DNA of 64,000 nt from Longimicrobiales bacterium (GTDB taxonomy: Bacteria > Gemmatimonadota > Gemmatimonadetes > Longimicrobiales > RSA9), in contig JAWODW010000089.1 of NCBI GenBank assembly GCA_046483065.1, forward strand, positions 96,403-160,402, read 5' to 3'. Under the pieces are notes generated by a model. The model ran no database searches and had not been told where the DNA came from. It saw only the letters and a program-made list of their open reading frames with translations. How positions within the stretch are numbered: the first letter of the stretch is position 1; every line of letters starts with the position of its first letter. A program made the position numbers and the translations under genes. Shown here in pieces: positions 18,081 to 36,347 of this stretch.

Positions 18081-18097
18081 GGAAAGGGAGGGTCGCA

Positions 18098-19048: not shown

Positions 19049-19050
19049 CC

Positions 19051-21036: not shown

Positions 21037-21047
21037 GCGACGTGGCG

Positions 21048-21910: not shown

Positions 21911-21926
21911 CGTGGCGCTCCTTCCC

Positions 21927-22307: not shown

Positions 22308-22594
22308 CCTCCGTGCCGACGGCAAGCAGCCGCCGATACCCAGCTCGTGTGTCGGACGCATGGCGTTCATGGAAAGGAGATGTCAACGCGAAGCAAGTCC
22401 ACGGGCTCGCCAGGGGTCCATTCCTCCAGGGTCTCCGGCGTCCTCAGCCGCATTTCCAGCCTCTCACGAGATGAGCCCGGTGCTCTGTCCTGTATATGCT
22501 TCCGAGCCCGTTTTCTGTCAACGAATCCCGACCGTGCCCCTGCCCGGCGTGACGCAGCCGCGCTCGCATGTCACGATACTTCGGCATCACTAAA

Positions 22595-22994: not shown

Positions 22995-23094
22995 GGCCCC
23001 CCTGATGAGTGGATTGCGTGAACCCTCCCGCGTCCACACGACGAATCCGGAGGGCCGGTTCTGTCGCGACGGTCCGGCGCCGGCGCCGGCCGGC

Positions 23095-23907
23095 TTAGCG
23101 GAGCACCAGCTCCACCACCACCGGCCGATGATCCGACGCCACCGGCTCATCCAGGAGCCTCCGGGTGACGACCTCCCACCGACCCTCCGGCCGGAACAGC
23201 ACGAAATCGATCTCCCGGTCCGGGGCGTAGGATGGGAACGTCAGATGGTCGGCGCCCTTGGGCACGATGGCCCACCCGCGCGAGAAGTGGATCATGACGT
23301 CGGAGTCCGGCGTGGAGTTGAAGTCGCCGGCCAGGAGGGTGGGGATCGTTTCGTCGCTGAGGTGCTCCTCGAGGCGAAGGGCCTGGGCGAGCCGCTCGTC
23401 GTCGGTCCGGTAGAAGTGGATGCCCACGAACCGGATCCTGCGCCCCGTGGTCGGCGACGCGACCGTGACCGCCAACGCCGTGCGCGGCTCAGCGCCCGCC
23501 GGGAGCCGAAGGTTCCTCGACTCCGCGATGGGCCACCGGGACAGCAGCGCCATCCCGTACGCGCCGCCCTGGTACGGCATGAACGCCCCGAACACGGGCT
23601 CGAGGCCGGTGAGGCGCCCCAGCTCCGCCGCCTGGTGGACGCCGTCCGTGCGCGTGGCCGCGCTGTCCACCTCCTGGAGCGCCACCAGGTCCGGATCCAC
23701 GGACCGTATGAGGTCGGCGATTCGCTCCAGGTCGACCACCTCGTCCACCCCCTCGCCGTGGTGGACGTTGTAGGCCAGCACCCGGATCGTGTCCCGGGCC
23801 GCGGGCACGGGGGACCCGGCGCCACCGTCCTCCACCATCCGCGAGGCGCCTCCACACGCCGCCGCGAGCGCCAGCATCATCAGGCCCGACCAGGCGGTGT
23901 TCCTCAT
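23095..23907 (-). CDS. Endonuclease/exonuclease/phosphatase (EEP) family protein, exported
   Basis: Signal peptide. Motifs IRVLAYNVHHG, LVALQEVD, AGDFNSTP and SDHRPVVVEL. Confidence 0.85.
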   Translation of the reverse strand: MRNTAWSGLMMLALAAACGGASRMVEDGGAGSPVPAARDTIRVLAYNVHHGEGVDEVVDLERIADLIRSVDPDLVALQEVDSAATRTDGVHQAAELGRLTGLEPVFGAFMPYQGGAYGMALLSRWPIAESRNLRLPAGAEPRTALAVTVASPTTGRRIRFVGIHFYRTDDERLAQALRLEEHLSDETIPTLLAGDFNSTPDSDVMIHFSRGWAIVPKGADHLTFPSYAPDREIDFVLFRPEGRWEVVTRRLLDEPVASDHRPVVVELVLR

Positions 23908-24052
23908 TCAGTGGCAGCCATATGACTCCGTACCTCGCAATCCGATCCCCCAGTCCCCCAATCCCGCCCAACGACGAAGGGGCCACCCACCGGCAAGGTC
24001 GCCTCGCCCGGGGGATGCCCCATATCGCCGCCCCGGCGCAGGAGCGGCTGTC

Positions 24053-25822
24053 CTACCGGTCCCTGTCCGGCCCCGCCTCGGCGGCCGCGCCCGCCACCGC
24101 CAGGGGCACATCCCCCAGCCCGGAGTACTGCGGGTTCTGGCGCCCGTCAGTGGCCTGGCTCACGCCCCCCTTCACGAAGGAGGCCACCTCGACGAAGGTG
24201 ACGATCCCGTTGCCGTCGGCGTCGGCGTCGCCGTTCAGGCCCTGGAGGATGTGGTGGGTGAATACGCCGTGGCCACCGCCCCAGCGTGCGTCCTCGAAGC
24301 TGAGCTCGTTGACGTCGGCGGCGGTCAGGGTGAGCCGGCGGGACGGGGTGAACAGGTCGTCGAAGGAGCCGCCGATGGGATTGCCCTGGGCGTCGGTCTC
24401 GCTCCCGCCGGTGCCGGCGGAGTGGCAGGCGTCGGCGATGACCACCACGCGCTCGGCGGAGATCTGGCGCCGCAGCGCGGTCTTCACGTCCCACATGGGG
24501 AACCCGGTGGAGGCCAGGGCGTCGATGTCGGTATCGACGGGGAAGAGGTACAGGTTGTCGGGCCGGTTCGGGTCGGGCGCGCCGTGGCCGGCGAAGTAGA
24601 TGACCACGAGGTCGTCCCAGTCGGCCTGCTGGAGGAAGACGAACATGGCCTCGCGCATGGCGGCGCCGGTGGCCTGCTCGTCGGTCAGCAGGAGGATGTG
24701 GTCCTCGTCGAACGGACCGGCGGCGTCGGAGCGGAGGAAGTCGTGGATCGCACGGGCGTCGTCATCGGCGTAGTCGAGGTCGGGGATGAGCCCGTCGTCG
24801 TAGTCACCGATCCCGATGACCACGGCCCAGCGCTCGTCGATGCGGGGCGACGCGAAGGCGGTGCGGGTATTGCCGGCGCCGTCCCGGGCCACCACGCGGA
24901 CCGAGTCCCGGTCCAGCGCCAGCGGGGTCTGGACGACGAACCGCGATGCCGGCCCCCGGGTGATCCCCAGCCGCTGGGCGTCGGCGGCGCTCAGCCGCTC
25001 GAGGGAGGCGGGCTCGCCCTCGACCTCCACGGCCACGTCAGCGCCGATGACCACGCCCTCGATCTCCACCAGGTTCGTGGCGTTCTGCTGCGCCTCGTGC
25101 TCCTCCCGGGAGATGACGCCGATCCCGCGGGTGGCCATGTCGCTGTCGGCCACGGGCTCGATCCGGGTCCCGAGGATGGCGAGGCCGGGGCCGCGGCTGC
25201 TGCCGCTCCGGCCCACTGCCTCCTCCACGGAGCCCGGGTCCGGCTGGAAGTAGCCCCGGGCGGCCCAGCCGTTGGCCTCCCAGTCATTCACGATGGCGCC
25301 GAGGAAGCCGGTCTCGGTGATCACTTCCTCGGCGGCGATCCGGATGGCGCCGGCCCGTGCGGCCTGGTCGGTGGCCTCCAGCTCCCGGCCGGAGCCGTGG
25401 GCCGTGGCCACTACGTTGCCCTGGTCGAGACGGAGCGCCCGGAGGCGGAGCTCGCTGGTGCCGGTGACGAGGGTGCCGGAGATGGGGTCCAGGTTCGTGC
25501 CCCACTCGGCCCGACCCAGGATCAGAACCTGAGCGCCGAAGTCGCGGCCGAGGCGGACGGCGGCGCCCTCGTCGCCATCGAGCGCCGCCTGGACCAGCTC
25601 GCGCTGCGCCGCGGTGTGGGCCAGCGCCGGGTCCACCAGCGGGAAGCCGGCCTCCAGCAGGAACGACGAGACCTCGCTCGCCGCCACGCCGGCGCTCCCG
25701 TTTTCGGGGACGAACACCAGCGTCCGGGGCAGCTCGCTCTCGAATCGGATCTCCTGGGCGTCGGCCGGGGCCGTCGCAAGAGCACCCACCAGTATCAGGC
25801 CCAGCGCTACCAGTCGCTTCAT
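24053..25822 (-). CDS. Exported caspase-like (C14) protein with N-terminal CsgG/LpoB-like domain and C-terminal EF-hand-like loop
   Basis: Signal peptide MKRLVALGLILVGALATAPADA. Catalytic His in IYFAGHGAP and Cys in IADACHSAG. DADGNGIVTFVE fits the 12-residue EF-hand loop. Confidence 0.85.
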   Translation of the reverse strand: MKRLVALGLILVGALATAPADAQEIRFESELPRTLVFVPENGSAGVAASEVSSFLLEAGFPLVDPALAHTAAQRELVQAALDGDEGAAVRLGRDFGAQVLILGRAEWGTNLDPISGTLVTGTSELRLRALRLDQGNVVATAHGSGRELEATDQAARAGAIRIAAEEVITETGFLGAIVNDWEANGWAARGYFQPDPGSVEEAVGRSGSSRGPGLAILGTRIEPVADSDMATRGIGVISREEHEAQQNATNLVEIEGVVIGADVAVEVEGEPASLERLSAADAQRLGITRGPASRFVVQTPLALDRDSVRVVARDGAGNTRTAFASPRIDERWAVVIGIGDYDDGLIPDLDYADDDARAIHDFLRSDAAGPFDEDHILLLTDEQATGAAMREAMFVFLQQADWDDLVVIYFAGHGAPDPNRPDNLYLFPVDTDIDALASTGFPMWDVKTALRRQISAERVVVIADACHSAGTGGSETDAQGNPIGGSFDDLFTPSRRLTLTAADVNELSFEDARWGGGHGVFTHHILQGLNGDADADGNGIVTFVEVASFVKGGVSQATDGRQNPQYSGLGDVPLAVAGAAAEAGPDRDR

Positions 25823-26499
25823 CAGCCTCCTCCTTCCACCCGCTCGAGGGCCGCCGCCGCGGCCCCGTGCCGTGGGAACAGCTCCAGGGCTCTCCTGTAC
25901 ATCTCCGCCGCCCGCGCGTCCTGGCCGTGTTCCTCGTAGGCCAGCCCGCGGGAGTAGGCGAGGACCGCCTCCACCGGCGGATCCGCGTCCCCGGCGGCCA
26001 CCCGGGTGGGCAGCTCCAGGCCGTCCAGGAAATCGTCGGCCAGCGCTGTCACCAGGTCGAGCATCCGGTCGCGCCCGCCCTGCTGCCGGCTCGCCTTCTC
26101 CACCGTGCCGCTGGCCACATCCAGGACCCGGAGATCGATGCGGGCGCGCTCCGGCTCCAGGGCCACGTTGCCGATCACGATGTACTGGGCGCCCAGCAGC
26201 CTGCCGAGCTCCAGCGCCCGGGACTCGTCCATCCGCCCGGACAGGGCGAGCTGCCGGCTCTCGATGAGCTGCTGGATCTGCTGCCGGTCGACCACGTGGA
26301 CCTGCGGCCGGTCCGCCAGCACCGTGGTGATCATGGTGGCGAGCCCGCGACCCACGGCGTCGGCGTCCTCACCGGTGAGGGAGAAAGCGTTGAAATCCAA
26401 TACGGCGATGGTCGGGACCCGGGGTCCCTCCGCATCCTGCGCCGCCGCCGAAACGGGCAGCAGGAGCGCGAGCATCAGTAGGGCAAGCGGTGGAAACAC
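25822..26499 (-). CDS. CsgG/LpoB-like domain plus TPR protein, exported
   Basis: The GTG at 26499 has GGAGG 5 nt upstream and a signal peptide follows. Domain sequence TIAVLDFNAFS...VHVVDRQQIQQLIESRQLALSG...LGRLLGAQYIVIGNV. The stop shares one base with the caspase ATG (TGATG). Confidence 0.7.
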   Translation of the reverse strand: MFPPLALLMLALLLPVSAAAQDAEGPRVPTIAVLDFNAFSLTGEDADAVGRGLATMITTVLADRPQVHVVDRQQIQQLIESRQLALSGRMDESRALELGRLLGAQYIVIGNVALEPERARIDLRVLDVASGTVEKASRQQGGRDRMLDLVTALADDFLDGLELPTRVAAGDADPPVEAVLAYSRGLAYEEHGQDARAAEMYRRALELFPRHGAAAAALERVEGGG

Positions 26500-26590
26500 G
26501 GGTACCTCCGCGTGACGCGCAGAACGAAGAAGGGAGAGCGCCCAAACGGGCAAGCCGTAAGGTAAAGCACCCGAGCGGATGGGAAAAGAA

Positions 26591-26990: not shown

Positions 26991-28076
26991 ATGAGCAAGC
27001 GAATCGCCATCAGCACAGGCGGCGGCGACGCCCCCGGGTTGAACGCCGTGATCCGGGCCACGGTACTCTCGGCGGTGAACCGTGGCTGGGAGGTCTACGG
27101 GATCCGGAAAGGGTATGGCGGGCTGCTGGGCGAGGACGAGATCGTGCGGCTGGACTCCCAGGCGGTCCGGGGAATCACCCATGTGGGCGGCACGATCCTG
27201 GGCACCACGAACCGGGGCAACCCGTTCGAATGGCCGGTGGAGGACGACGACGGGACCACCCGTGTCATCGACCGGAGCGACGAGGTCATCGAGAACTTCA
27301 AGCGCCGTGAGTTCGACGCCATGGTGGCCATCGGCGGCGACGGCTCGCTCCATATCGCCAACGAGCTGTGGAAAAAGGGGCTGCCGGTGGTGGGGGTCCC
27401 GAAGACCATCGACAACGACCTGGCCGCCACCCAGGTCACCTTCGGGTTCCACACCGCAGTGCAGACCGCGTCGGAGGCGCTGGACAAGCTCCACTCAACG
27501 GCCGAGAGCCACGAGCGAGTCATGGTGGTGGAGCTCATGGGCCGCCACACCGGCTGGATCGCGCTCTTCGCCGGCGTCAGCGCCACGGCCGACGTGATCC
27601 TGATCCCCGAGATCCCGTACGACGTCGCGAAGGTGTGCGACAAGATCCGGGAGCGGGACGCCACCGGCCGCCTCTTCTCCATCGTGGTGGTGGCCGAGGG
27701 CGCGAAGCCGGTGGAGGGCGGTGCGTCATTGGCCGAGGAGGCCGGGCCCGGCAAGGAGGCCCGCTACGGCGGGATCGCAGAGCAGATCGCCCACCAGATC
27801 GCAGAGCGCACGGGCAAGGAGACCCGGTCGCTGGTCCTGGGACACCTGCAGCGCGGCGGGTCGCCCATCGCCTACGACCGGTTGATCGCGCTCCGGTTCG
27901 GCGCCGCCGCCGTGCGCTACGTGGCCGACGGCGCCTACGGCACCATGGTGGCGCTGGACCCACCCGGCGTCCGGGCCGTCCCGCTCGTGGAGGCCACCCG
28001 CAGGACCAAGGCGGTACCGCTGGACTCGGACGTGGTGGAAACCGCCCGGGACCTGGGGATCTCCTTCGGCGACTGA
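26991..28076 (+). CDS. pfkA: ATP-dependent 6-phosphofructokinase
   Basis: Motifs GGGDAPGLNAVIRA, IGGDGSL (Gly, not Asp, which suggests the ATP type) and PKTIDNDL. Confidence 0.9.
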   Translation: MSKRIAISTGGGDAPGLNAVIRATVLSAVNRGWEVYGIRKGYGGLLGEDEIVRLDSQAVRGITHVGGTILGTTNRGNPFEWPVEDDDGTTRVIDRSDEVIENFKRREFDAMVAIGGDGSLHIANELWKKGLPVVGVPKTIDNDLAATQVTFGFHTAVQTASEALDKLHSTAESHERVMVVELMGRHTGWIALFAGVSATADVILIPEIPYDVAKVCDKIRERDATGRLFSIVVVAEGAKPVEGGASLAEEAGPGKEARYGGIAEQIAHQIAERTGKETRSLVLGHLQRGGSPIAYDRLIALRFGAAAVRYVADGAYGTMVALDPPGVRAVPLVEATRRTKAVPLDSDVVETARDLGISFGD

Positions 28077-28097
28077 CGCGGGCGGGCCGGCAGGCTC

Positions 28098-28448
28098 CTA
28101 GTTGAGCCGGACCTCCACCGTCTCGCCCGTCTGCAGTACCACCGTCCGCCGGACGGTATGGGTGTCCTCCTCGTCCCGGGCGATGATGGTGATGGTGGTG
28201 GAGAAGCTCCCGTCCAGGATGAAGCGCTCCTCCCGATCGGGGCCCACGGTGCCCAGGAGCCGGGTGTCGGCGCCGTCGTCGATGGAGACGATCATGGGGT
28301 GGGGCATCTCATTGACCACCGCCACGGCGTAGCGCTGGCCGAGGTCGGCGTCCCTGGACATGCCGGCGCAGGCGGCGCCCGCGAAGGCGAGGAACGCGGC
28401 GAGGGCCAGGAGGCGAAGTCGTCGCATAGGGATCGGGTGCTCCTTCAT
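28098..28448 (-). CDS. Hypothetical lipoprotein
   Basis: LALAAFLAFAGAAC lipobox. The ATG shares one base with the upstream stop. Confidence 0.6.
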   Translation of the reverse strand: MKEHPIPMRRLRLLALAAFLAFAGAACAGMSRDADLGQRYAVAVVNEMPHPMIVSIDDGADTRLLGTVGPDREERFILDGSFSTTITIIARDEEDTHTVRRTVVLQTGETVEVRLN

Positions 28449-29173
28449 CAGGGTCTGTTCCAGTCGAGGGCACGGAACCGCTCACCGGTCACGCCCTCCG
28501 ATTCGCCGCTGGCGAGCCAGAGGAATACGCCCGTGGCGTCCTCCGGCGGGGCCGGCCTTTTCGGGTCCTCGTCGGGGTACGCTGCCCGGCGCATTTCCGT
28601 CCGCAGGCGGCCCGGGTCCACGATGTTGACGCGGATCCCGGCGTCTTCTTCCTCCAGCGCCAGGTTCTTCGACAGCGCTTCCACGCCCCATTTGCTGATG
28701 GCGTAGGCGCCCCAGCGTTTCCGTGCGATGTTCCCCACGCCGCTGGAGACGTTGATTATGGAGCCCCGTCCCGCTTCGCGCATCCCCGGCAGCACCGCCT
28801 GGATGGGGAGCAGCGTGCCCGTGACGTTGACGTCAAGCACCTCCCGCCATGCGTCCAGGGGGTGTTCCCGGAGCGGGACCCGGGGCCCGAGGATCGACGC
28901 GTTGTTCACCAGCGTGTCGATGGGGCCGAACCGCTCGGTGGCCCGGGCCACCAGCGAGGCCACGTCGGCCGCGTCGGAGACGTCCACGGCGCCCCACTCG
29001 ACCTCGGTCTCATCACGGAGCGACGCCGCCGCCGCGGCCATGCGGTCCTCGCCACGGGCGCACAGCACCAGCCGGGCACCGGCGTCGGCGAAGGCGTCGG
29101 CCAGCGCCCGGCCGAGGCCGCGCGACGCGCCGGTGATGAAGGCGGTGTGGCCGGAGAGGTCGACGGCGCTCAT
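28448..29173 (-). CDS. Short-chain dehydrogenase/reductase (SDR)
   Basis: TGASRGLG cofactor motif and catalytic YAISK (YxxxK). Confidence 0.88.
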   Translation of the reverse strand: MSAVDLSGHTAFITGASRGLGRALADAFADAGARLVLCARGEDRMAAAAASLRDETEVEWGAVDVSDAADVASLVARATERFGPIDTLVNNASILGPRVPLREHPLDAWREVLDVNVTGTLLPIQAVLPGMREAGRGSIINVSSGVGNIARKRWGAYAISKWGVEALSKNLALEEEDAGIRVNIVDPGRLRTEMRRAAYPDEDPKRPAPPEDATGVFLWLASGESEGVTGERFRALDWNRP

Positions 29174-29571
29174 CCGTTCGAGTCCCCGGAGGCGTCATCG
29201 GGCCGCGCGTCCTCGATGACGTCGGCCACGGCCCGGAGCTCGCGGCCGACCCGGACGAGCCGGTCCCGGGCGGTGAGGACGTAGGCGTAATCGAAGTAGG
29301 CGTTCACGGGGTCGTCCGCCCCCACGTACTGCTCCAGGATGAGTGCGTCCATACGCTCTTTCAGGTGGCCGAGGACCACGTCGAGGGCCCGCAGCAGCCG
29401 GTCCTGCTCGGTCAGGGAGGCTACGGACACGTCGCCCTGGAGCGGGAGCCGTTCGTCCAGCGCCGCGAGCGCCTCCGGTGGCGCGGCCACGCCCCCACGA
29501 CCGGCGTCGAGCATCCGCTCCGCCGCCGAGTTCAGCGCCGTGATCTCTTCGTATGTCAGCTCCAGGATCAT
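29170..29571 (-). CDS. Hypothetical protein
   Basis: The ATG at 29571 is preceded by GGGAG. The stop overlaps the SDR start (ATGA). No recognisable motif. Confidence 0.5.
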   Translation of the reverse strand: MILELTYEEITALNSAAERMLDAGRGGVAAPPEALAALDERLPLQGDVSVASLTEQDRLLRALDVVLGHLKERMDALILEQYVGADDPVNAYFDYAYVLTARDRLVRVGRELRAVADVIEDARPDDASGDSNG

Positions 29572-29677
29572 CCCGCTCCCACGCACATCCGGTGTCTATG
29601 CCGTCTACCGTTCAGGATACATGCCAGTGTCCCGGGGGTTCCTTCCGCTCCGCGGTCTCCCGTCGACATTCTGCCTG

Positions 29678-30421
29678 TCAGTCGGGACCGGCACCGAGCC
29701 AGTCGGCCAGCACGAGGCCGGCCAGGAGGTCCAGGACCACGTGAGCGATCATGGATGGGTACACGCTGCCGGTGATGAGGAACGGGGCCGTCAGGATGAG
29801 GCCCAGGAGGATGACCCGGAGTACGCCGAGCAGGCCCTGGTAGGCGTGGGTCACGGCGAAGGCGGCCACGCTGATGACCACGGCGATCGTCAGGCTGCCG
29901 GAAGCCTGGTGAATCGCGGCGATGAGAAAGCTCCGGAAGACCAGCTCCTCGGCGATGCCCGCGGACACGGAGAGCCCGGCAAAGGCAATCTTCTCCGGGG
30001 TGGTCCGGGGGATCAGGTAGTCCACCAGCTCGCTCTCGGAGACGTCCAGCGCCCGGCCGGCGGCCATGATAGTGAGGCCGGCCAGCGTGGTCAGTCCTGC
30101 CGAGCCCAGGAGCACGGCTGAGGAGATGGCCTCGAGGCGCAGGTCGGTGCGGGTAAGCCCGCTGTGCTGCGCCGCCAGCATGGCCAGGATCGCCATGATC
30201 CAGACGGCGAGGGCCGACGAGAAGTATACGCCCTCCCGCTCCGCCTCGGCGGGCAGCTGGTCGAGGAGCCGGGCCTGGAGGATCATGAGCGCCGGGAGCG
30301 GCCCGAGGAGGAAGGTGGTCAGCGCGCGGACCGGCCACGCCAGTCCGTGAAGACTGAGCCAGATCCCGAGCGTAACCACCAGGACCAGGAGCCCGAGCGC
30401 CCGGCCCAGAGCCCGGTTCAT
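29678..30421 (-). CDS. CPBP-family intramembrane glutamic endopeptidase (CAAX protease-like)
   Basis: Multi-TM protein with motifs EELVFRSFL and HAYQG. The ATG at 30421 overlaps the upstream stop (ATGA). Confidence 0.8.
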   Translation of the reverse strand: MNRALGRALGLLVLVVTLGIWLSLHGLAWPVRALTTFLLGPLPALMILQARLLDQLPAEAEREGVYFSSALAVWIMAILAMLAAQHSGLTRTDLRLEAISSAVLLGSAGLTTLAGLTIMAAGRALDVSESELVDYLIPRTTPEKIAFAGLSVSAGIAEELVFRSFLIAAIHQASGSLTIAVVISVAAFAVTHAYQGLLGVLRVILLGLILTAPFLITGSVYPSMIAHVVLDLLAGLVLADWLGAGPD

Positions 30422-31308
30422 GAGAGCCACCTCCGGGCCGCCGGCGCCAGGAGCGCCAGGACGGTTCCCGTCACGAGCCCGAGACCGGTGTCGACGGCGT
30501 AATGGACACCGGCGTACACGGCGCCCACGGCGATGCCCAGGGTGGCGAGCGCCAGGATCGGCGCGCTGGCGGGCATCTGTCGCAGGGCGTTCCCCGTCTG
30601 CACGGCCGAGAGGGCCACGTGGGAGGACGGGAACGCCGTCCCCGCGCTGGCGCCGTGCCCGAGCACGAAATGGACGCCGGCATAGAACAGACCGTCCGAG
30701 ACCGGTTCCCCCGGGGCAGGGAAGACGAAGTACGGACCCTTGACCGGGAAATATACGAACACGGTGTAATGGATGGTGAAGGCCAGGAGCATGGCGAACA
30801 CGGTCTGGTGGAACGCTTCCCGCCCCCGTCGGATGTAGACCACGGCAGGGTACACGTAGAGGATGGCGAAATAGGACAGATACGCCAGGTGCAGCGGCTC
30901 CGACACCCACGGCGATGGCCAGCGCCGGGCCATGGTGACCGATGGCTGCCCGCCGAAGACGGTCTCCTCCCAGCCCTGCACCATGAGGTCGAAGTAATGG
31001 CCGCCCCAGGCGGCGGTGTTCAGGATCGGGAGCTCCAGGTAGAGGCAGGGCATCACCACGAGCGGATACCAGTCGATGAGCAGGCCCGTCCAGCGGCGCC
31101 GTCGCGATGTACCGGGCGCGGTGGCGTGGGCCGCGAACTGGTGGATGGGGTCCAGCTTGCCGGCCAGGAGAGCGGTGCCCACGCTCAGGTGGACGAGGAG
31201 GAGCAGGAGGCCTACGGGGGTGGTGTGGGGCGGGGCCAGGGCCAGCCCCGCAAGGATGAGGTACCCGCCGATTACGCGGTCGACGGGCCGTGCGATGGAG
31301 TCAGCCAA
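30418..31308 (-). CDS. PAP2_3 (Aur1/IPC-synthase-like) membrane phosphotransferase/phosphatase
   Basis: Multi-TM protein with PAP2 motifs FPSSHVA and GVHYAVD. Start is uncertain (TTG 31308 proposed, track start 31416). Confidence 0.65.
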   Translation of the reverse strand: MADSIARPVDRVIGGYLILAGLALAPPHTTPVGLLLLLVHLSVGTALLAGKLDPIHQFAAHATAPGTSRRRRWTGLLIDWYPLVVMPCLYLELPILNTAAWGGHYFDLMVQGWEETVFGGQPSVTMARRWPSPWVSEPLHLAYLSYFAILYVYPAVVYIRRGREAFHQTVFAMLLAFTIHYTVFVYFPVKGPYFVFPAPGEPVSDGLFYAGVHFVLGHGASAGTAFPSSHVALSAVQTGNALRQMPASAPILALATLGIAVGAVYAGVHYAVDTGLGLVTGTVLALLAPAARRWLS

Positions 31309-32425
31309 GCTCCTGGCCGTACACGCGGTACGTCTTGAAGACGTGCGCACCCATGCGCTCCATCCCCCGGCGCATCCCCCAGTTGTCCTCGAGGATCCAG
31401 CCGGCCTCCGCGCCATCGATCCCTACCTCCATCCCGTTTTCGAACATGCGGAGGTAGAAGAGCGCATCGATGCCCTTCCGCCGGTATTCGGGCTTCAGCC
31501 CCAGGGTGAAGACCCGGACCCGGTCGATCTTCCGGCGATACCAGAGCAGCTTGAAGATCCCGAAAGGGAAGAGGCGGCCGTTCACGTGCTTCAGCGCCTG
31601 GTTGTAGTCGGGCAGCCCCAGTGCAAAGCCCACCGGCCGGCCGTGGACCTCCGCCATGAAGGCAAACCGCTCGTCGATGATGGGCTTCAGCTCTTCGGCC
31701 AGGTGCCGGATCTCGGCGTCGGTCAGCGGCGCGAACCCCCAGTTCCTCTCCCACGCGCTGTTGTAGATTTCCTTGACCAGCTCCACCTCTTCATCCAGGC
31801 GCTTCAGCTCGACCTGTCGGACCACGAGGCCGTCGATACGGCTGGTCATCCGCTTCACGCCCTTCACCAGCCGCTCCGGCGGTGCAGTGGACTTGAGCCA
31901 GTAGGAGAGGAGGTCCCTGGCTTTCTCCCACCCCGCACCCTCGAACAGCGCGCGATAGTACGGCGGGTTGTGGCCCATGAGCAGGGCGGGCGGCTCGTGG
32001 TAGTTGTCCAGGAGCACGCCGGGGCTGTAGAGCTCGTCGTTGGTGGACAGGTTGAACGGCCCGATCGCGCGGGTCATCTGCCGCTCGCGGAGCCAGTCCG
32101 AGGCGGTCTCCAGAAGCAGGTCGGCCACGGCCTGATCGTCCATGGACTCGAACAGCCCGATGAAGCCCGTCCGGGTCTGGTGGAACTCGTTGTACCGGTG
32201 ATTCACGGCCGCGGCGATGCGGCCCACCACCTCGCCGTCCCGGACCGCTAAGAAGAACTCGGTGTCCGCGTGCTGCTGGAACGGGTGGTCCGCGTCCATG
32301 AGCTTGCGGACGTCGGACATCAGCGGTGGAACCCACGCGTCGTCGTTCGCGTAGACGTGCCAGGGGAACCGGATGAAGCGGTTCCGGCCGGCCCGGTCCC
32401 GGACGGGGACCACTACTGTGCTCAT
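31301..32425 (-). CDS. GNAT-fold acyltransferase (candidate N-acyltransferase of the lipid cluster)
   Basis: 374 aa starting at MSTVVVPV, 2 nt after the upstream stop. Acyl-CoA binding motif A-like YRRKGIDAL. Confidence 0.7.
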   Translation of the reverse strand: MSTVVVPVRDRAGRNRFIRFPWHVYANDDAWVPPLMSDVRKLMDADHPFQQHADTEFFLAVRDGEVVGRIAAAVNHRYNEFHQTRTGFIGLFESMDDQAVADLLLETASDWLRERQMTRAIGPFNLSTNDELYSPGVLLDNYHEPPALLMGHNPPYYRALFEGAGWEKARDLLSYWLKSTAPPERLVKGVKRMTSRIDGLVVRQVELKRLDEEVELVKEIYNSAWERNWGFAPLTDAEIRHLAEELKPIIDERFAFMAEVHGRPVGFALGLPDYNQALKHVNGRLFPFGIFKLLWYRRKIDRVRVFTLGLKPEYRRKGIDALFYLRMFENGMEVGIDGAEAGWILEDNWGMRRGMERMGAHVFKTYRVYGQELG

Positions 32426-32427
32426 GG

Positions 32428-33612
32428 CTATAGGACGGCCATCGCTTTCCCGACCTGGGCGAATGCCTCCAGGACCTGGTCGACATGGTGGTCCTCGTGG
32501 GTCGCCATGAGCGAGATCCGCAGCCGGCACGAGTCCTCGGGGACGGCCGGCGGCGTGACCGGGTTCGTGAAGACGCCGGCGTCGAAGATCTCCTTCCAGA
32601 AGACCAGCATCCGGTCGAGCTCGCCGATCACCACCGGGACCACCGGTGTCTCGCTAGTGCCTATGTCATAGCCCAGCGCCTTCAGCCCTTCCTGCATCCG
32701 GCGGGTATTGTGCCAGAGCTTCTCGACCCGTTCCGGCTCCGACCGGAGCACGTCCAGCGCCGCCTGCACCGTGGCCACGGCCGACGGTGGCATACTGGCG
32801 CTGAAAATCAGGGGTCGGGCGTGGTGCTTCAGGTAGTGGATCACGGGCTCCGGCCCCGCCACCACACCGCCGATGGAGGCCAGCGACTTGGAGAACGTGG
32901 TCACGATCAGGTCCACGTCGTCCACCAGCCCGTAGTGCTCGGCGGTGCCGGCGCCGCGGGCGCCCAGGACGCCGAAGGCGTGGGCGTCGTCCACCACCAC
33001 CTTGGCGTTGTACTTCTTGCCGAGCTCCGTGAGGCTCGGGAGATCGGCGATATCACCCTCCATGGAGAAAATGCCATCGGTGATGATCATCTTCCCGGCA
33101 TCCTCGGGCACCTTCTTCAGGAGCCGCTCCAGGTCCGCCATGTCGCTGTGGTGATACTTGTGGGTCTCGCCGTGCGAGAGCCGGCAGCCGTCCACGATGC
33201 TGGCGTGGTTCAACCGGTCGCTGAAGATGTGCTCGTTGCGCCCCACCAGCGCCCCGATCACGCCCAGGTTCGTCTGGAAGCCCGTGCTGAAGATCAGCGC
33301 GTCCTCCTTGCCCAGGAATTCCGCCAGGTCCTGTTCCAGCTGCTCGTGCAGGTCCAGCGTGCCGTTCAGGAACCGGCTGCCGGTACACCCGCTCCCGTAT
33401 TGACGCAGGGCAGCGTCGGCCGCGGCCATGACCTTCGGGTGGTGGGTCAGGCCCAGGTAGTTGTTGGACCCGACCATGATCTTCCGGTGGCCCTCCACCA
33501 CCACCTCGGTGTCATGGGAGTTCTCTATGGCCCGGAAATACGGGTAGTACCCGGACGCCTGGACCTCCCGGGCCTGCGTATAGTTACGGCACTTTTCGAA
33601 TAGACTCATCAA
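32428..33612 (-). CDS. spt: Serine palmitoyltransferase-like alpha-oxoamine synthase (PLP-dependent)
   Basis: GSGCTGSRFLNGT closely resembles the SPT GSGTNGSRMLNGT block. PLP-Lys context TFSKSLASIGG. Also VTPPAVP and RLRISLMATH. KBL, BioF or CapB-type activity cannot be excluded. Confidence 0.75.
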   Translation of the reverse strand: MMSLFEKCRNYTQAREVQASGYYPYFRAIENSHDTEVVVEGHRKIMVGSNNYLGLTHHPKVMAAADAALRQYGSGCTGSRFLNGTLDLHEQLEQDLAEFLGKEDALIFSTGFQTNLGVIGALVGRNEHIFSDRLNHASIVDGCRLSHGETHKYHHSDMADLERLLKKVPEDAGKMIITDGIFSMEGDIADLPSLTELGKKYNAKVVVDDAHAFGVLGARGAGTAEHYGLVDDVDLIVTTFSKSLASIGGVVAGPEPVIHYLKHHARPLIFSASMPPSAVATVQAALDVLRSEPERVEKLWHNTRRMQEGLKALGYDIGTSETPVVPVVIGELDRMLVFWKEIFDAGVFTNPVTPPAVPEDSCRLRISLMATHEDHHVDQVLEAFAQVGKAMAVL

Positions 33613-33638
33613 CCCCCCGATCTCATCACTTCAGCGAC

Positions 33639-34604
33639 TCACAGCCAGCCGTACGTTCGGTACCAGTCGGCGGTTTCCCGCAATCCGTCTGCCAGGACCA
33701 CCTCCGCCTCGAAGCCCAGCTCCTGTCGAGCCGTCTCTGTCTCGCATAGCCATTCCGCCATCAGTTCCTTCGCCTTGTCCCGGTCGAATATGACCGGCCG
33801 GCGCGTCAGCCGGGCCACGCCTTCCGACACCGCTGCCGCAGTCTTCACCACCGCGACGGGCACGCGAATCCGGCGCCCGCGTCGGCCCATCGTTTCGGCC
33901 ATCAGCCCCAGGATCTCGTCCCAGGCGTAGGCTCGGGGCTCCGCCACATGGTAGACGCCCGTGGCGCCCCGGACGTTCGCCGCCGCCACCATGGCCGCGG
34001 CCAGGTCCCCGGCGTGGACCAGCTGAACCCTCCGGTCCGGCGGCCCCACAACCGGGAGGATGCCGGAGCGGGCGAGCCGGAAGAAGGGCAGCAGGTCCCG
34101 ATCCCGGGGGCCGTAAACCGCCGGGGCGCGGATCACCGCGCCGCCCGCCGCCCGCTCGAGCACGGCTCGCTCCCCTGCCCGCTTGCTCCGGCCGTACGCG
34201 GTGAGCGGTCGGGGCTCGTCCCCCGGTCGGACCGGCCGGCCCTCCGCGGGTCCGACCGCCGCCAGAGAGCTGAGATAAACCAGTCGCTGGTCGCCGCCCT
34301 CCGCTTTGAGAGCAGCGACGAGATTCTCCGTCCCTTTCGCGTTGATCCTGTGAAACGTGTCCGCGTCGAGCGCTCGCGTCGCGGCGGCCATGTGGAGCAC
34401 CGTGCGGGTGCCCGCGACCGCCTTCCGGAGCGAGGCCTCGTCGCCCAGACTGCCCATCACCGTCTCGAACCCGTGCCTGTCCAGGAACGAGGTATCGCTG
34501 GTCTCGCGTACGAGGACCCGCGCTCGGGCGCCCTGTGCCGCCAGCGCTTCGACGAGGTGCGACCCGACGAACCCGGTCGCGCCGGTGATGAGAATATCCG
34601 TCAC
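33639..34604 (-). CDS. NAD(P)-dependent epimerase/dehydratase-family reductase
   Basis: ILITGATGFVGSHL Rossmann motif and catalytic YGRSK. GTG 34604 is proposed because the upstream 41 codons look non-coding. Confidence 0.78.
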   Translation of the reverse strand: MTDILITGATGFVGSHLVEALAAQGARARVLVRETSDTSFLDRHGFETVMGSLGDEASLRKAVAGTRTVLHMAAATRALDADTFHRINAKGTENLVAALKAEGGDQRLVYLSSLAAVGPAEGRPVRPGDEPRPLTAYGRSKRAGERAVLERAAGGAVIRAPAVYGPRDRDLLPFFRLARSGILPVVGPPDRRVQLVHAGDLAAAMVAAANVRGATGVYHVAEPRAYAWDEILGLMAETMGRRGRRIRVPVAVVKTAAAVSEGVARLTRRPVIFDRDKAKELMAEWLCETETARQELGFEAEVVLADGLRETADWYRTYGWL

Positions 34605-34741
34605 AACGTGCCGTTGAAGGTGGGCGCCCGATCCCAAAAAGGCAATGACGGGAGTGGCTCCCCGATGGGACGGGACTTGCACGCGCTGGGGGCTGCGACC
34701 AGCTTTCCCGACCCCGAACTCGCGCACCGAAGGAGGACCCC

Positions 34742-35020
34742 GTGGCGCTTCTCGATGAGCAGCAGATCCGCGCTGGACTCGACCACCTGCACGGCTGGAC
34801 CCGTGAGGGCGACGTGATCCGCAAGACGTTCACGCTGGACTCCTTCCCGGAGGCCATTGAATTCGTGAACCGGATCGCCGAGCGGGCCGAGGCGGCGGAC
34901 CATCATCCGGATATCGACATCCGGTACGACCGTGTGGCGTGCGCCCTGTCCACCCATAGTGAGGGAGGGCTCACGGTAAAGGACTTCGACATGGCGGCGG
35001 AGATCGACGAGCTCCGCTGA
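34742..35020 (+). CDS. phhB: Pterin-4-alpha-carbinolamine dehydratase
   Basis: 92 aa with the HHPDIDIRYDRV motif and W..(E/R)G..I.K.F context. Confidence 0.85.
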   Translation: MALLDEQQIRAGLDHLHGWTREGDVIRKTFTLDSFPEAIEFVNRIAERAEAADHHPDIDIRYDRVACALSTHSEGGLTVKDFDMAAEIDELR

Positions 35021-35027
35021 GGGCCCG

Positions 35028-36347
35028 TCACGACGCCACGTCCGCCAACAGCGTTGCCACCACGTCCACGGTGTGATCGAGCTGCGCCTCCGTGATGGTG
35101 AGCGGGGGCGTGAACGCCAGCGCCGCACCCTCGGGGAGGAGGATCACGCCTTCGCGAAGCGCCGCCGCGGCGAGCCGGGCGGCCGTGCCCTCGGGACCGG
35201 TCACCGACAGCGCCCGCATCAGCCCCAGGCCCCGGGCCGACCGCGCCGCCGGGTACCGGGCCACCAGCGTATCCAGCGCTTCGCCCAGCCGACGGCCGAG
35301 CCGGTCCGCGCGCTCCACCAGCCCCCGGCCCTCGATTTCGTCGAGGTGGGTCAGTGCCGCCGCACACGAGACCGGGTTCCCGAGGAACGTGCTCGTGTGG
35401 ATCGCCTCGCCGGCCGATGGCGGCCACGCGTCCATGGCCGCGGGCGAGCCCACCACGGCGCTCAGCGGGAGCCCACCGGCCAGCGACTTCCCCAGCACAA
35501 GCAGGTCGGGCACCACGTCCCAGTGCTGGCAGGCGAACCATCGCCCCGTACGGCCCAGCCCCGTGTAGACCTCGTCGGCGATCAGGAGCACGTCCTCGGC
35601 GTCGCACAGCTGTCGGAGCCCCGGGAGGAACGCCGGCGGCGGCACCACGATTCCGCCCCGTCCCTGCACCGGCTCCACGATCACGGCGCCCACCGGGTGT
35701 GGCCCCGACCGAGCGACCTCGATGGCGCCGCCCACGGCGTCCAGCGAGGCGTCGGTGCCGTCGGTCCCTGCCCCGGGGAACGGCGCGAACCGGACGCCGT
35801 CGAAGAGCTGGTCGGCGAAGGGCGCCCGGAACCGCTCGCCGGACGTGACGCTGAGAGCTCCGTAGCCGAGCCCGTGGTAACCGCCGTGGAACGCCACGAT
35901 GCCGGGCCGGCCCGTGGCCATGACGGCCGTCTTGAGCGCCGATTCCACGGCGTCGCTACCGTTGGCCGAGAGGATCGAGACCGAGAGGTCGCCGGGGGCC
36001 AGAGCCGCGAGCCGCTCCAGCAGCGTGACCTTCACGTCCGCGGGGTGCACGTCGCCCATGGCGTGGGGCAGGCGACGGAACTGGTCGGCGACCGCCCCGG
36101 CCACCGCCGGGTTCCCGTGGCCCGCAGCGCTCACCCCGAAGCCGGCGGTAAGGTCGATGTAGACGTTCCCGTCGGCGTCCTGCACGTTCGCGCCGGCGGC
36201 CTCCGCCCAGAAGATCGGCCCGGCGCCGCCCAGCGCGGTGATGTTCCGGCTCTCCACCGCGCCGAGCCGCTCCGCCAGCTCCCGGGATCGAGGGCCGGGG
36301 ATCGGGGTGTGGAGCCGGGGGAGCTCCTCGCCCGGCGCGTTCATCAT
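35028..36347 (-). CDS. Class III (omega) aminotransferase
   Basis: DEVYTGLGRTG...LVLGKSLAGGLP contains the PLP Lys. Length and N-terminal pattern fit the family. Confidence 0.85.
   Translation of the reverse strand: MMNAPGEELPRLHTPIPGPRSRELAERLGAVESRNITALGGAGPIFWAEAAGANVQDADGNVYIDLTAGFGVSAAGHGNPAVAGAVADQFRRLPHAMGDVHPADVKVTLLERLAALAPGDLSVSILSANGSDAVESALKTAVMATGRPGIVAFHGGYHGLGYGALSVTSGERFRAPFADQLFDGVRFAPFPGAGTDGTDASLDAVGGAIEVARSGPHPVGAVIVEPVQGRGGIVVPPPAFLPGLRQLCDAEDVLLIADEVYTGLGRTGRWFACQHWDVVPDLLVLGKSLAGGLPLSAVVGSPAAMDAWPPSAGEAIHTSTFLGNPVSCAAALTHLDEIEGRGLVERADRLGRRLGEALDTLVARYPAARSARGLGLMRALSVTGPEGTAARLAAAALREGVILLPEGAALAFTPPLTITEAQLDHTVDVVATLLADVAS

What the first reader, a model, noticed from the sequence alone, without database searches (positions are those of the whole stretch)
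29678..34604. Compact sphingoid- or capnoid-type lipid biosynthesis operon with a PAP2_3 head-group enzyme and a CPBP protease
Five minus-strand genes sit with overlaps or gaps of 26 nt or less. In order they encode a NAD(P)-dependent epimerase-family reductase, an SPT-like alpha-oxoamine synthase, a 374-aa GNAT-fold acyltransferase, a PAP2_3 (Aur1/IPC-synthase-like) membrane enzyme and a CPBP intramembrane protease. The SPT-like protein's GSGCTGSRFLNGT block closely resembles the Sphingomonas SPT block GSGTNGSRMLNGT.

The first three match the enzyme classes reported for bacterial ceramide synthesis in Caulobacter: Spt, a GNAT-type bCerS and an epimerase-like CerR. The same classes also fit capnine/sulfonolipid synthesis (CapB-type synthase plus CapC-type reductase), so the amino-acid substrate is undetermined.

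No ACP gene is present in the cluster. The PAP2_3 gene suggests a phospho-head-group transfer step (IPC or sphingomyelin-synthase-like) that is poorly defined in bacteria. The linked CPBP protease is unexplained.
Basis: partly seen in the sequence, partly recalled or inferred. Interest (0 to 1): 0.6.

Follow-up and report, generated by a model that had tools for sequence, protein, structure and literature searches.

The report
Phosphosphingolipid synthesis operon in Gemmatimonadota
A soil/sediment bacterium of the phylum Gemmatimonadota carries a tight operon with the three known bacterial ceramide-synthesis enzymes plus a membrane enzyme shaped like yeast inositol-phosphorylceramide synthase, so it probably makes phosphate-headed sphingolipids; this is a predictable extension of a known pathway, with an unexplained membrane protease attached.

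Summary
Five tightly packed minus-strand genes (29678-34604) encode an extended-SDR reductase, an alpha-oxoamine synthase, a tandem-GNAT acyltransferase, a PAP2_3 membrane enzyme and a CPBP protease.

- **Source.** The window is from a Longimicrobiales (Gemmatimonadota) MAG.
- **Synthase.** It groups with characterised serine palmitoyltransferases: 51% identity and 441 bits to the Sphingobacterium multivorum SPT. KBL scores 287 bits and the cysteate acyltransferases 252 and 244 bits.
- **GNAT and reductase.** Both are full-length homologues of the acyltransferase and reductase in the Sphingomonas sphingolipid locus. That locus has the layout of the Caulobacter Spt/CerR/bCerS region. The GNAT family also includes E. 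coli YghO.
- **Conservation.** The synthase lies within 10 kb of the GNAT, usually adjacent, in 63 of 83 loci from more than 20 phyla. In two protein clusters the synthase and GNAT are fused.
- **PAP2_3.** Its closest solved relative is yeast Aur1, by both fold and sequence profile. It travels with the triad in Gemmatimonadota and Eisenbacteria.
- **CPBP.** It is a faithful companion only within Longimicrobiales, and its role is unexplained.
- **Extension.** Three further genes (28098-29586) are conserved downstream.

Verdict: a new variant of the known bacterial ceramide pathway. A capnine pathway is unlikely. No lipid product has been shown.

The parts
33639..34604 (-). Extended-SDR (NAD-dependent epimerase/dehydratase family) reductase, CerR-like; first gene of the operon. 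An alternative TTG start lies at 34637.
   Evidence: Pfam Epimerase 113 bits. The best NCBIfam match, HpnA, is far below its cutoff. TGATGFVG and YGRSK motifs are present. It is 30% identical, E 4e-34, to the NAD(P)H-binding protein upstream of ACP-Spt in Sphingomonas. NDUFA9 is among its PDB hits. It lies near the GNAT in 53 of 83 loci.
32428..33612 (-). Serine palmitoyltransferase-like alpha-oxoamine synthase (Spt), of the Sphingobacterium/CFB type
   Evidence: NCBIfam SerpalmtaseCFB is the top match at 550 bits, below its cutoff of 640. PDB scores: S. multivorum SPT 441 bits, KBL 287, cysteate acyltransferases 252 and 244, BioF 229. The alignment to SmSPT is gapless over 386 residues, with 51% identity. 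In the NJ tree it groups with SPTs.
31301..32425 (-). Tandem-GNAT N-acyltransferase of the YghO/bCerS family (predicted bacterial ceramide synthase)
   Evidence: Pfam Acetyltransf_1. AF2 model pLDDT 85.9; tandem-GNAT fold. It is 35% identical over its full length to the Sphingomonas sphingolipid-locus acyltransferase and 33% to E. coli YghO. AOS-GNAT fusions P0126 and P0211 exist. The family has 8362 clusters at 50% identity.
30418..31308 (-). PAP2_3 (Aur1-like) integral membrane enzyme; predicted ceramide phospho-head-group transferase. Its TTG start overlaps the GNAT stop by 8 nt.
   Evidence: Pfam PAP2_3 45.5 bits, cutoff 27. AF2 pLDDT 92.7. The Foldseek PDB top two hits are yeast Aur1 9ivc_A and 9vj4_A, E 2.6e-4, ahead of PgpB, LpxE and SMSr. 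The family profile's best PDB hit is AUR1, E 5e-6, over AFPSSH...HYAxD. H230, H269 and D273 are invariant. It is linked to the triad in 25 loci and in L088-L090.
29678..30421 (-). CPBP (Rce1-like) glutamic-type intramembrane protease; ATGA-coupled to PAP2_3; role unknown
   Evidence: Pfam Rce1-like 61 bits. Motifs EELVFR, FAVTH and HVVLD are intact, and there are 7 hydrophobic segments. The subfamily is confined to Gemmatimonadota/Longimicrobiales, with the best 120 hits 58-95% identical. It is present next to the triad in L001-L005 and L089, including L001, which lacks PAP2_3.
29170..29586 (-). Acidic soluble protein of 133-138 aa with no known family ('U138'); syntenic companion after a gap of about 100 nt
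   Evidence: No Pfam, NCBIfam or PDB match. pI 4.3. Orthologues sit at the same position in L001-L003 and L089.
28448..29173 (-). Classical SDR (YciK/FabG-like); ATGA-coupled to U138; variable companion
   Evidence: Pfam adh_short 185 bits. The best NCBIfam match, YciK, scores 190, below its cutoff of 269. TGASRGLG, NNA and YAISK motifs are present. It is present in L001-L003 and absent in L004, L005 and L089.
28098..28448 (-). Small predicted lipoprotein (116 aa); its start overlaps the SDR stop
   Evidence: Signal peptide with lipobox LAFAGAAC, read from the sequence. No family match. Orthologues are in L001-L004.

Best explanation
The region is a biosynthetic operon for a phosphate-headed sphingolipid.

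Steps inferred from homology to characterised enzymes:
1. The SPT-like synthase condenses L-serine with a long-chain acyl thioester to give 3-ketosphinganine. The donor is probably acyl-CoA, because this is the Sphingobacterium type and no ACP or acyl-ACP synthetase gene is linked.
2. The tandem-GNAT (YghO/bCerS family) N-acylates the long-chain base.
3. The extended-SDR (CerR-like) reduces the 3-keto group, giving dihydroceramide. The order of steps 2 and 3 is assumed from Caulobacter.

Step inferred from fold, motifs and gene linkage:
4. The Aur1-like PAP2_3 enzyme acts at the periplasmic face. The positive-inside rule places its His-His-Asp site there. It transfers a phospho-alcohol head group from a glycerophospholipid onto the C1 hydroxyl of ceramide and releases diacylglycerol. 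The head group could be ethanolamine, glycerol or inositol and is undetermined.

Not explained: the CPBP protease, which has intact catalytic motifs, is translationally coupled and is a constant companion of the triad in Longimicrobiales. The downstream U138, SDR and lipoprotein genes are lineage-specific accessories. My guess is that these act in maturation, regulation or export of the lipid.
For: **Synthase.**
- NCBIfam: SerpalmtaseCFB is the best model at 550 bits.
- PDB ranking: SPT 441 bits, then KBL 287, then cysteate acyltransferase 252 and 244.
- Identity to SmSPT is 51%, with a gapless alignment.

**GNAT and reductase.**
- They are homologous over their full length to the N-acetyltransferase and the NAD(P)H-binding protein of the S. 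parapaucimobilis locus.
- That locus reads reductase, ACP, Spt, LptF, LptG, desaturase, acyltransferase.
- This is the layout described for Caulobacter CC_1165-CC_1154 in PMC11324152.
- The same GNAT family is E. coli YghO. YghO sits beside genes that RefSeq names spt, ACP, epimerase and fatty acyl-AMP ligase.

**Linkage.**
- The synthase is found within 10 kb of the GNAT, usually adjacent, in 63 of 83 loci, and the reductase in 53 of 83, across more than 20 phyla.
- AOS-GNAT fusion proteins are seen on several independent contigs.

**PAP2_3.**
- PF14378 above its cutoff.
- High-confidence model.
- Aur1 is the top hit by fold and by profile.
- The catalytic His, His and Asp are invariant.
- It is linked to the triad in three different gene orders.

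An Aur1-type transferase needs a C1 hydroxyl. This argues for a serine-derived base (inference).
Against: - No lipid data exist for this organism or, to my knowledge, for the phylum.
- The synthase is below NCBI's equivalog cutoff (550 against 640), so the amino-acid substrate is not proven.
- I could not obtain the Caulobacter CCNA_01212/01222 or B. fragilis BF9343_4218/4240 sequences. The link to experimentally tested bCerS and CerR rests on positional orthology in Sphingomonas.
- Foldseek similarity of PAP2_3 to Aur1 is modest (E 2.6e-4, TM 0.50-0.59). PAP2 phosphatases share the same core.
- A close relative (L001) has the triad and the CPBP without PAP2_3, so PAP2_3 is dispensable for the core function.
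- The window's PAP2_3 subclade has lost an otherwise conserved Arg (GPRY to GPYF).
Confidence: 0.65

Rival explanations
1. The triad makes ceramide, but the PAP2_3 protein is a lipid phosphatase rather than a head-group transferase. Possible substrates are ceramide-1-phosphate, sphingoid-base phosphate, undecaprenyl-PP or lipid A.
For: PF01569 (PAP2) also matches, at 22.8 bits. PgpB, LpxE and acid phosphatases share the C2/C3 core and appear as the next fold and profile hits. NCBI names the protein 'phosphatase PAP2 family protein'. Caulobacter uses a ceramide kinase route to phosphosphingolipids (PMC10331486, listed).
Against: Aur1 outranks every phosphatase by both fold and profile. The whole-protein architecture of about 8 helices aligns to Aur1 over 275-305 columns. 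The canonical C1 motif KxxxxxxRP of phosphatases is not evident. No ceramide kinase gene is in the cluster.
Confidence: 0.2
2. The cluster makes a capnine-type sulfonolipid: cysteate plus acyl thioester gives dehydrocapnine, which is reduced and then N-acylated.
For: The enzyme classes are the same (alpha-oxoamine synthase, NAD(P) reductase, N-acyltransferase). The synthase does hit cysteate acyltransferases (28eh 252 bits, 7u7h 244 bits).
Against: SPTs score far higher (441 bits). The best NCBIfam model is an SPT. No cysteate synthase gene is linked. The GNAT and reductase are homologous to those of sphingolipid loci in Sphingomonas and E. coli. Capnine has no C1 hydroxyl for an Aur1-type enzyme to modify.
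Confidence: 0.04
3. The AOS-GNAT-reductase triad makes a different N-acyl amino-ketone or amino-alcohol. Examples are 1-deoxy (alanine- or glycine-derived) ceramide-like lipids or a small signalling molecule. The membrane genes are unrelated neighbours.
For: The substrate is not proven. The synthase is below the equivalog cutoff. The GNAT family is huge (8362 clusters) and occurs in organisms with no reported sphingolipids, including E. coli. 1-deoxy ceramides are reported from environmental bacteria (PMC11334938).
Against: Overlap coupling of GNAT, PAP2_3 and CPBP. PAP2_3 is repeatedly linked to the triad in different gene orders and phyla. The synthase aligns gaplessly at 51% identity to a crystallographically characterised SPT.
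Confidence: 0.1

Closest known systems
Bacterial ceramide pathway Spt / bCerS (CerS) / CerR of Caulobacter crescentus (CCNA_01220/01212/01222 = CC_1162/1154/1164), also found in Sphingomonas, Bacteroides and others
   Same: The same three enzyme families, all homologous over their full length to the Sphingomonas locus proteins. The genes are clustered.
   Different: Here the three genes are contiguous in the order reductase, Spt, GNAT. There is no dedicated ACP, no acyl-ACP synthetase and no LptF/G paralogues. The Spt is of the Sphingobacterium/CFB type rather than the alphaproteobacterial type (38% identity to the Sphingomonas Spt, 51% to SmSPT). The host phylum has no reported sphingolipids.
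Aur1-type inositol phosphorylceramide synthases: yeast Aur1 (PDB 9ivc, 9vj3/9vj4) and Bacteroides thetaiotaomicron BT_1522 (PI-dihydroceramide synthase, PMC9246714)
   Same: PF14378 family. The C2 (PSxH) and C3 (HYxxD) catalytic motifs are present. Aur1 is the best hit by fold and by profile. The predicted job is to put a phospho-head group on ceramide.
   Different: Sequence similarity is low (14-16% identity in the fold alignment; the profile hit covers only the C2-C3 region). There is no Kei1-like partner. No inositol-synthesis genes are linked, so the head group may not be inositol. A direct comparison with BT_1522 was not possible.
Caulobacter ceramide phosphoglycerate route (ceramide kinase CpgB, CpgA/C/D)
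   Same: It would also yield an anionic phosphosphingolipid for the outer membrane of a diderm bacterium.
   Different: The chemistry and the enzymes are entirely different (kinase plus cytidylyltransferase route). None of those genes is in this cluster. They are present in the Roseomonas locus L085.
CPBP/Rce1-like intramembrane proteases, including the Mrt sorting proteases (MrtS, MrtJ, PEP-CTERM-linked CAAX protease)
   Same: Pfam family and all three catalytic motifs.
   Different: Scores against the Mrt and pepcterm NCBIfam models are far below their cutoffs (22-25 bits against 75-130). No sorting-signal substrate was identified. I am not aware of a described link between a CPBP protease and sphingolipid genes.

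Membership tests
Serine palmitoyltransferase (alpha-oxoamine synthase subfamily) | Closer in sequence to characterised SPTs than to KBL, BioF, ALAS, CqsA or cysteate acyltransferases | tested here: met
   PDB phmmer scores: SmSPT 441 bits, Sphingomonas SPTs 305-319, KBL 287, cysteate acyltransferases 252 and 244, BioF 229, ALAS 198. In the NJ tree it groups with SmSPT, apart from Kbl and BioF.
Serine palmitoyltransferase (alpha-oxoamine synthase subfamily) | Reaches the curated NCBIfam equivalog score for an SPT model | tested here: not met
   NF047600 SerpalmtaseCFB scores 550 bits against a cutoff of 640. It is still the top model.
Serine palmitoyltransferase (alpha-oxoamine synthase subfamily) | PLP-binding Lys and catalytic His and Asp conserved; L-serine used as substrate | tested here: inconclusive
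   TFSKSLAS, NHASI and DDAH align identically with SmSPT. Substrate choice cannot be read from the sequence.
Bacterial ceramide synthase bCerS/CerS (CCNA_01212 / CC_1154 / BF9343_4218) | Homology to the N-acyltransferase of an established bacterial sphingolipid locus | tested here: met
   35% identity over 374 of 383 aa, E 3e-77, to the N-acetyltransferase that follows LptF-LptG in the S. parapaucimobilis Spt locus. That is the position of CC_1154 in Caulobacter (PMC11324152).
Bacterial ceramide synthase bCerS/CerS (CCNA_01212 / CC_1154 / BF9343_4218) | Direct sequence comparison with the experimentally tested proteins (Caulobacter, B. fragilis) | not tested
   The sequences were not obtainable. 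PMC8891067 is not held, and AFDB fold libraries were unavailable.
Bacterial ceramide synthase bCerS/CerS (CCNA_01212 / CC_1154 / BF9343_4218) | Genomic linkage to Spt | tested here: met
   AOS homologue within 10 kb of the GNAT, usually adjacent, in 63 of 83 loci. AOS-GNAT fusions P0126 and P0211.
Ceramide reductase CerR (CCNA_01222 / CC_1164) | Extended-SDR homologous to the reductase encoded beside ACP-Spt in sphingolipid producers; NAD(P) and YxxxK motifs | tested here: met
   30% identity, E 4e-34, to the Sphingomonas NAD(P)H-binding protein and 31% to the epimerase of the E. coli cluster. TGATGFVG and YGRSK motifs.
Ceramide reductase CerR (CCNA_01222 / CC_1164) | Periplasmic location, acting after N-acylation (Caulobacter model, PMC11087976) | not testable with these tools
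   No signal peptide is evident. Caulobacter CerR is also reported to lack an obvious one.
Aur1/IPC-synthase-type phosphotransferase (Pfam PAP2_3) | PF14378 match above the gathering score | tested here: met
   45.5 bits against a cutoff of 27. The homologues also carry PF14378.
Aur1/IPC-synthase-type phosphotransferase (Pfam PAP2_3) | Catalytic His (C2, PSxH) and His...Asp (C3, HxxxD) conserved | tested here: met
   FPSSH at 226-230 and HYAVD at 269-273. These residues are invariant in 39 homologues and align with Aur1 AFPSLH...HHYFVD.
Aur1/IPC-synthase-type phosphotransferase (Pfam PAP2_3) | Overall fold closer to Aur1 than to PAP2 phosphatases or SMS-family enzymes | tested here: met
   Foldseek: 9ivc_A and 9vj4_A at E 2.6e-4 (TM 0.50-0.59). 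Next are PgpB 5jki at 3e-2, LpxE 6ebu at 5e-2 and SMSr 8ijq at 0.28.
Aur1/IPC-synthase-type phosphotransferase (Pfam PAP2_3) | Transfers phosphoinositol (or another phospho-alcohol) from a glycerophospholipid to ceramide | not testable with these tools
   Requires biochemistry or lipidomics. No MIPS or PI-synthesis gene was seen in the parts of the window that were annotated.
Capnine/sulfonolipid pathway (CapA/CapB/CapC; SulA) | Synthase closest to cysteate acyltransferases; linked cysteate synthase | tested here: not met
   Cysteate acyltransferases score 252 and 244 bits against 441 for SPT. No cysteate synthase-like gene is in the cluster.
CPBP (Rce1-like) glutamic intramembrane protease | PF02517 match and the three motifs EExxxR, FxxxH and HxxxN/D | tested here: met
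   61 bits against a cutoff of 22.4. EELVFR at 158, FAVTH at 188 and HVVLD at 227.
Mrt-type C-terminal sorting proteases (MrtS, MrtJ, PEP-CTERM CAAX) | Score at or above the curated NCBIfam cutoffs | tested here: not met
   22-25 bits against cutoffs of 75-130.

The most novel reading that the evidence does not exclude
The CPBP protease is not a bystander but works on the product of the operon. One reading is that it cleaves a C-terminal signal of envelope proteins and helps to attach them to the phosphosphingolipid, a bacterial analogue of GPI or ceramide anchoring. The other is that it is an obligatory partner or regulator of the Aur1-like synthase, as Kei1 is for yeast Aur1. Either would be a first functional link between a CPBP protease and sphingolipids.
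Probability: 0.06. Interest if true: 0.8.

Novelty: new variant of a known kind. Interest (0 to 1): 0.42.

Why it matters
It extends predicted sphingolipid synthesis to Gemmatimonadota, an abundant soil phylum for which I know of no reported sphingolipids.

It also gives a compact four-gene candidate for a complete phosphosphingolipid pathway: reductase, Spt, bCerS and an Aur1-like transferase.

Apart from the Bacteroides inositol enzyme BT_1522, I know of no identified bacterial enzyme that puts phosphoethanolamine or phosphoglycerol on ceramide. The PAP2_3 clade found here is linked to the triad in Gemmatimonadota, Eisenbacteria and other lineages. It is a concrete, testable candidate for that missing step.

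The constant CPBP partner in Longimicrobiales is an unexplained lead.

As a by-product, E. coli YghO is placed in the bCerS family.

Tried and rejected
- **Reference sequences.** I could not fetch the Caulobacter bCerS and CerR sequences.
  - The Stankeviciute 2022 paper is not held.
  - The supplements of PMC11334938 held nothing useful.
  - I substituted positional orthologues from a Sphingomonas chromid, E. coli and Streptomyces.
- **Genome scan.** A 20-sequence subset worked.
- **Source contig.** Looking it up by P0001 failed.
- **Low-GC GNAT representatives.** They turned out to be Ignavibacteria and WOR-3, not Bacteroides.
- **GNAT, U138 and PAP2_3 (as a single sequence).** They have no PDB sequence relatives.
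- **HpnA (hopanoid epimerase) for the reductase.** Rejected: 150 bits against a cutoff of 368.
- **Regulatory signals.** No Rfam family was found in the window, and no convincing sigma-70 promoter or intrinsic terminator in 27900-35100.
- **Genes downstream of PAP2_3 outside Longimicrobiales.** Nothing is conserved there, so the CPBP is a lineage-specific addition.
- **The exo/endo/phosphatase-family gene at 23095-23907.** Its fold family, from my own knowledge, includes sphingomyelinases. It lies in a block absent from relative L001, so it is not treated as part of the system.

Full report
**What is there.** The window is about 70% G+C. It comes from a Longimicrobiales (Gemmatimonadota) metagenome-assembled genome: the GNAT protein is identical to an NCBI MAG protein on a 169-kb contig.

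| Gene | Coordinates | Size | Family |
|---|---|---|---|
| Reductase | 33639-34604 | 321 aa | extended-SDR, 'epimerase' family |
| Synthase | 32428-33612 | 393-394 aa | alpha-oxoamine synthase |
| GNAT | 31301-32425 | 374 aa | tandem GNAT |
| PAP2_3 | 30418-31308 | 296 aa | PAP2_3 membrane protein |
| CPBP | 29678-30421 | 247 aa | CPBP/Rce1-like protease |

Reading the junctions gives a 26-nt gap, a 2-nt gap, an 8-nt overlap and a 4-nt ATGA overlap. The 296-aa PAP2_3 model with a TTG start matches the NCBI model P0301. The longer 332-aa ORF is not the gene.

**The unit is longer than reported.** In relatives whose flanks differ (L002, L003), the same order continues after the CPBP gene. It runs on with a 138-139 aa protein that has no Pfam match, a classical SDR and a protein of about 116 aa.

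In the window these are 29170-29586, 28448-29173 and 28098-28448. They are overlap-coupled to each other and separated from the CPBP gene by about 100 nt.
- The 116-aa protein has a lipoprotein signal, LAFAGAAC.
- The SDR is YciK/FabG-like, below any equivalog cutoff.
- The SDR is absent from L004, L005 and L089, and PAP2_3 is absent from L001. These two are therefore variable parts.
- The 138-aa protein and the lipoprotein recur more often.

**The synthase is an SPT.**
- Its best NCBIfam model is the Cytophaga-Flavobacterium-Bacteroides serine palmitoyltransferase, at 550 bits. That is below the strict cutoff of 640.
- Against all PDB sequences the ranking is: Sphingobacterium multivorum SPT 441 bits, Sphingomonas SPTs 305-319, a Thermus KBL/BioF-like enzyme 315, KBL 287, cysteate acyltransferases 252 and 244, BioF 229, ALAS about 198.
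- The alignment to the S. multivorum enzyme is gapless over 386 residues. It shares the PLP-lysine, His and Asp motifs, and identity is 51%.
- In a neighbour-joining tree it sits with that SPT and with all synthases that lie next to a GNAT of this family. It is apart from E. coli Kbl (36%) and BioF (33%). Deep bootstrap values are modest.

So the refutation test 'clades with KBL or BioF' fails, and the capnine reading is disfavoured.

**The GNAT and reductase are the bCerS and CerR families.** I could not obtain the Caulobacter or Bacteroides reference sequences. Instead I searched plasmid and chromid records with the GNAT.

In Sphingomonas parapaucimobilis the hit lies in a locus that reads: NAD(P)H-binding protein, acyl carrier protein, class I/II aminotransferase, ATP-binding protein, LptF, LptG, desaturase, N-acetyltransferase.

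That is the layout published for Caulobacter. There CC_1164 is cerR, CC_1163 acpR, CC_1162 spt, CC_1156 and CC_1155 are second copies of LptF and LptG, and CC_1154 is cerS (PMC11324152).

Pairwise comparisons of the window proteins with this locus:

| Window protein | Identity | E-value |
|---|---|---|
| GNAT (full length) | 35% | 3e-77 |
| Reductase | 30% | 4e-34 |
| Synthase | 38% | 6e-100 |

Further support:
- The same GNAT family includes E. coli YghO. YghO lies beside genes that RefSeq annotates as spt, acyl carrier protein, epimerase-family protein and fatty acyl-AMP ligase, plus LptF/G paralogues.
- A Streptomyces plasmid has synthase, GNAT and epimerase in a row.
- The AlphaFold model of the GNAT (pLDDT 85.9) is a tandem-GNAT fold like MshD. 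No solved structure belongs to the family itself.

**Linkage across phyla.** The GNAT family is very large: 8362 clusters at 50% identity. A scan of one genome per species returned 80 loci from more than 20 phyla.

A tblastn search with the eight window proteins against all 83 loci found:

| Window protein | Loci with a hit |
|---|---|
| Synthase (usually adjacent, 45-77% identity) | 63 |
| Reductase | 53 |
| PAP2_3 | 25 |
| CPBP | 5 |

Two protein clusters are synthase-GNAT fusions of 777-780 aa. They are seen on several independent contigs. This is the Spt/bCerS/CerR co-localisation described in PMC11334938.

**The PAP2_3 protein is Aur1-like.**
- It matches PF14378 above its cutoff.
- In 39 homologues the C2 (AFPSSH) and C3 (HYAxD) residues are invariant.
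- The AlphaFold model is confident (pLDDT 92.7).
- In the PDB its only two matches with E below 0.001 are yeast Aur1 structures, 9ivc_A and 9vj4_A (TM 0.50-0.59). They rank ahead of PgpB, LpxE and SMSr.
- The family profile also hits AUR1 best, at E 5e-6 over C2-C3.
- Basic clusters lie at the N-terminus, at RRRR 69-72, at RRGR 158-161 and at the C-terminal RR. They alternate with the loops that carry the conserved acidic and catalytic residues. By the positive-inside rule the active site is then periplasmic. This is an inference.

The gene is linked to the triad in three different arrangements:
- reductase-Spt-GNAT-PAP2 in Longimicrobiales;
- Spt-GNAT-reductase-PAP2 in Gemmatimonadales and Eisenbacteria;
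- a cluster with a ligase-ACP-synthase fusion, in which the GNAT and PAP2_3 genes lie adjacent on opposite strands next to Mla genes.

Bacteroides BT_1522, an AUR1 homologue, is a genetically shown PI-dihydroceramide synthase (PMC9246714). The step therefore has a bacterial precedent. The head group made here is unknown. An Aur1-type reaction needs a C1 hydroxyl, which argues for a serine-derived base (inference).

**The CPBP protease.**
- Its three catalytic motifs are intact.
- Its subfamily appears confined to Gemmatimonadota. The best 120 hits are 58-95% identical, more conserved than the PAP2_3 protein in the same relatives.
- Many contig lengths recur in the GNAT, PAP2_3 and CPBP hit lists, consistent with shared contigs.
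- It accompanies the triad even where PAP2_3 is missing (L001).
- It does not reach the cutoffs of the known Mrt sorting-protease models.
- Outside Longimicrobiales nothing is conserved in its place.

Its role is unexplained.

**Mechanism proposed.** Spt, then bCerS, then CerR give dihydroceramide. This is shown only by homology, and the order is taken from Caulobacter. The Aur1-like enzyme then adds a phospho-head group at the outer face of the inner membrane, inferred from fold, motifs and linkage. The CPBP and the three downstream genes are lineage-specific accessories of unknown function. No RNA family, promoter or terminator signal helped to define the transcription unit.

**Verdict.** This is a new variant of the known bacterial ceramide pathway, in a phylum without reported sphingolipids. 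It carries an in-operon candidate phospho-ceramide synthase and an unexplained protease partner. Interest is moderate. The main value is a testable candidate for a bacterial head-group transferase other than BT_1522.

Noticed in passing
L086 (E. coli plasmid record NZ_MG591698.1, 846-19922); E. coli chromosomes: E. coli YghO belongs to the same tandem-GNAT (bCerS) family: 33% identity over 95-98% of the query. It sits by glcC, next to a fatty acyl-AMP ligase, an epimerase-family reductase, an ACP, a gene RefSeq names 'spt', and LptF/LptG paralogues. At least 80% of this 5.6-kb block is present in 4068 of 5426 complete E. coli genomes. E. coli is not generally regarded as a sphingolipid producer.
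   Followed up: partly
P0126 (780 aa) and P0211 (777 aa): Natural fusion proteins with an N-terminal alpha-oxoamine synthase and a C-terminal GNAT of this family. P0126 is seen as 780 aa on at least three contigs, including one of 819 kb, and split in two on another.
   Followed up: partly
L088 1-7978 (GCA_964537775.1 contig CAZICQ010000001.1): A differently built cluster. It holds an AMP-ligase/ACP/alpha-oxoamine-synthase tri-domain protein of more than 1096 aa, a DAO oxidoreductase, a polysaccharide deacetylase, an LPG_synthase_TM protein, a GT4 glycosyltransferase, a bCerS-family GNAT (41% identity, no Pfam hit on record) and a PAP2_3 homologue (42%). MlaE/F/D genes follow. It may make a glycosylated or aminoacylated sphingolipid.
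   Followed up: partly
window 30742-30762 (PAP2_3 residues about 183-189); alignment A4 columns about 310-320: The conserved motif FPVQGPRY reads FPVKGPYF in the window and its six closest homologues. This is a correlated Gln-to-Lys and Arg-to-Tyr swap that keeps one basic residue near the predicted active-site loop.
   Followed up: no
window 15891-26553: A block absent from the otherwise syntenic relative L001. It holds a CHASE2-adenylate/guanylate cyclase, a GAF/HD-GYP-type protein, an exo/endo/phosphatase-family protein (23095-23907), and a caspase-domain (Peptidase_C14) protein of 589 aa directly following a CsgG/LpoB-like TPR lipoprotein. A second CsgG-like TPR protein lies at 47908-49362.
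   Followed up: no
window 66-842: An IstB-like IS21 helper ATPase lies at the left edge of the window, where G+C drops to about 60%. This suggests a mobile element at that end.
   Followed up: no
L085 (Roseomonas gilardii pRo-1, 1-23240): The bCerS-family GNAT is annotated 'dATP pyrophosphohydrolase', probably a misnomer. Its neighbours are LptF/G-family permeases, a sterol-desaturase-family protein, a nucleotidyltransferase, an acylglycerol-kinase-family protein and a CDP-alcohol phosphatidyltransferase. This resembles the Caulobacter phosphosphingolipid region, carried on a 424-kb replicon.
   Followed up: no
window 44472-47264: A 930-aa protein with RCC1-repeat/RLD domains, an unusual eukaryote-like repeat protein. 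It is unrelated to the finding.
   Followed up: no
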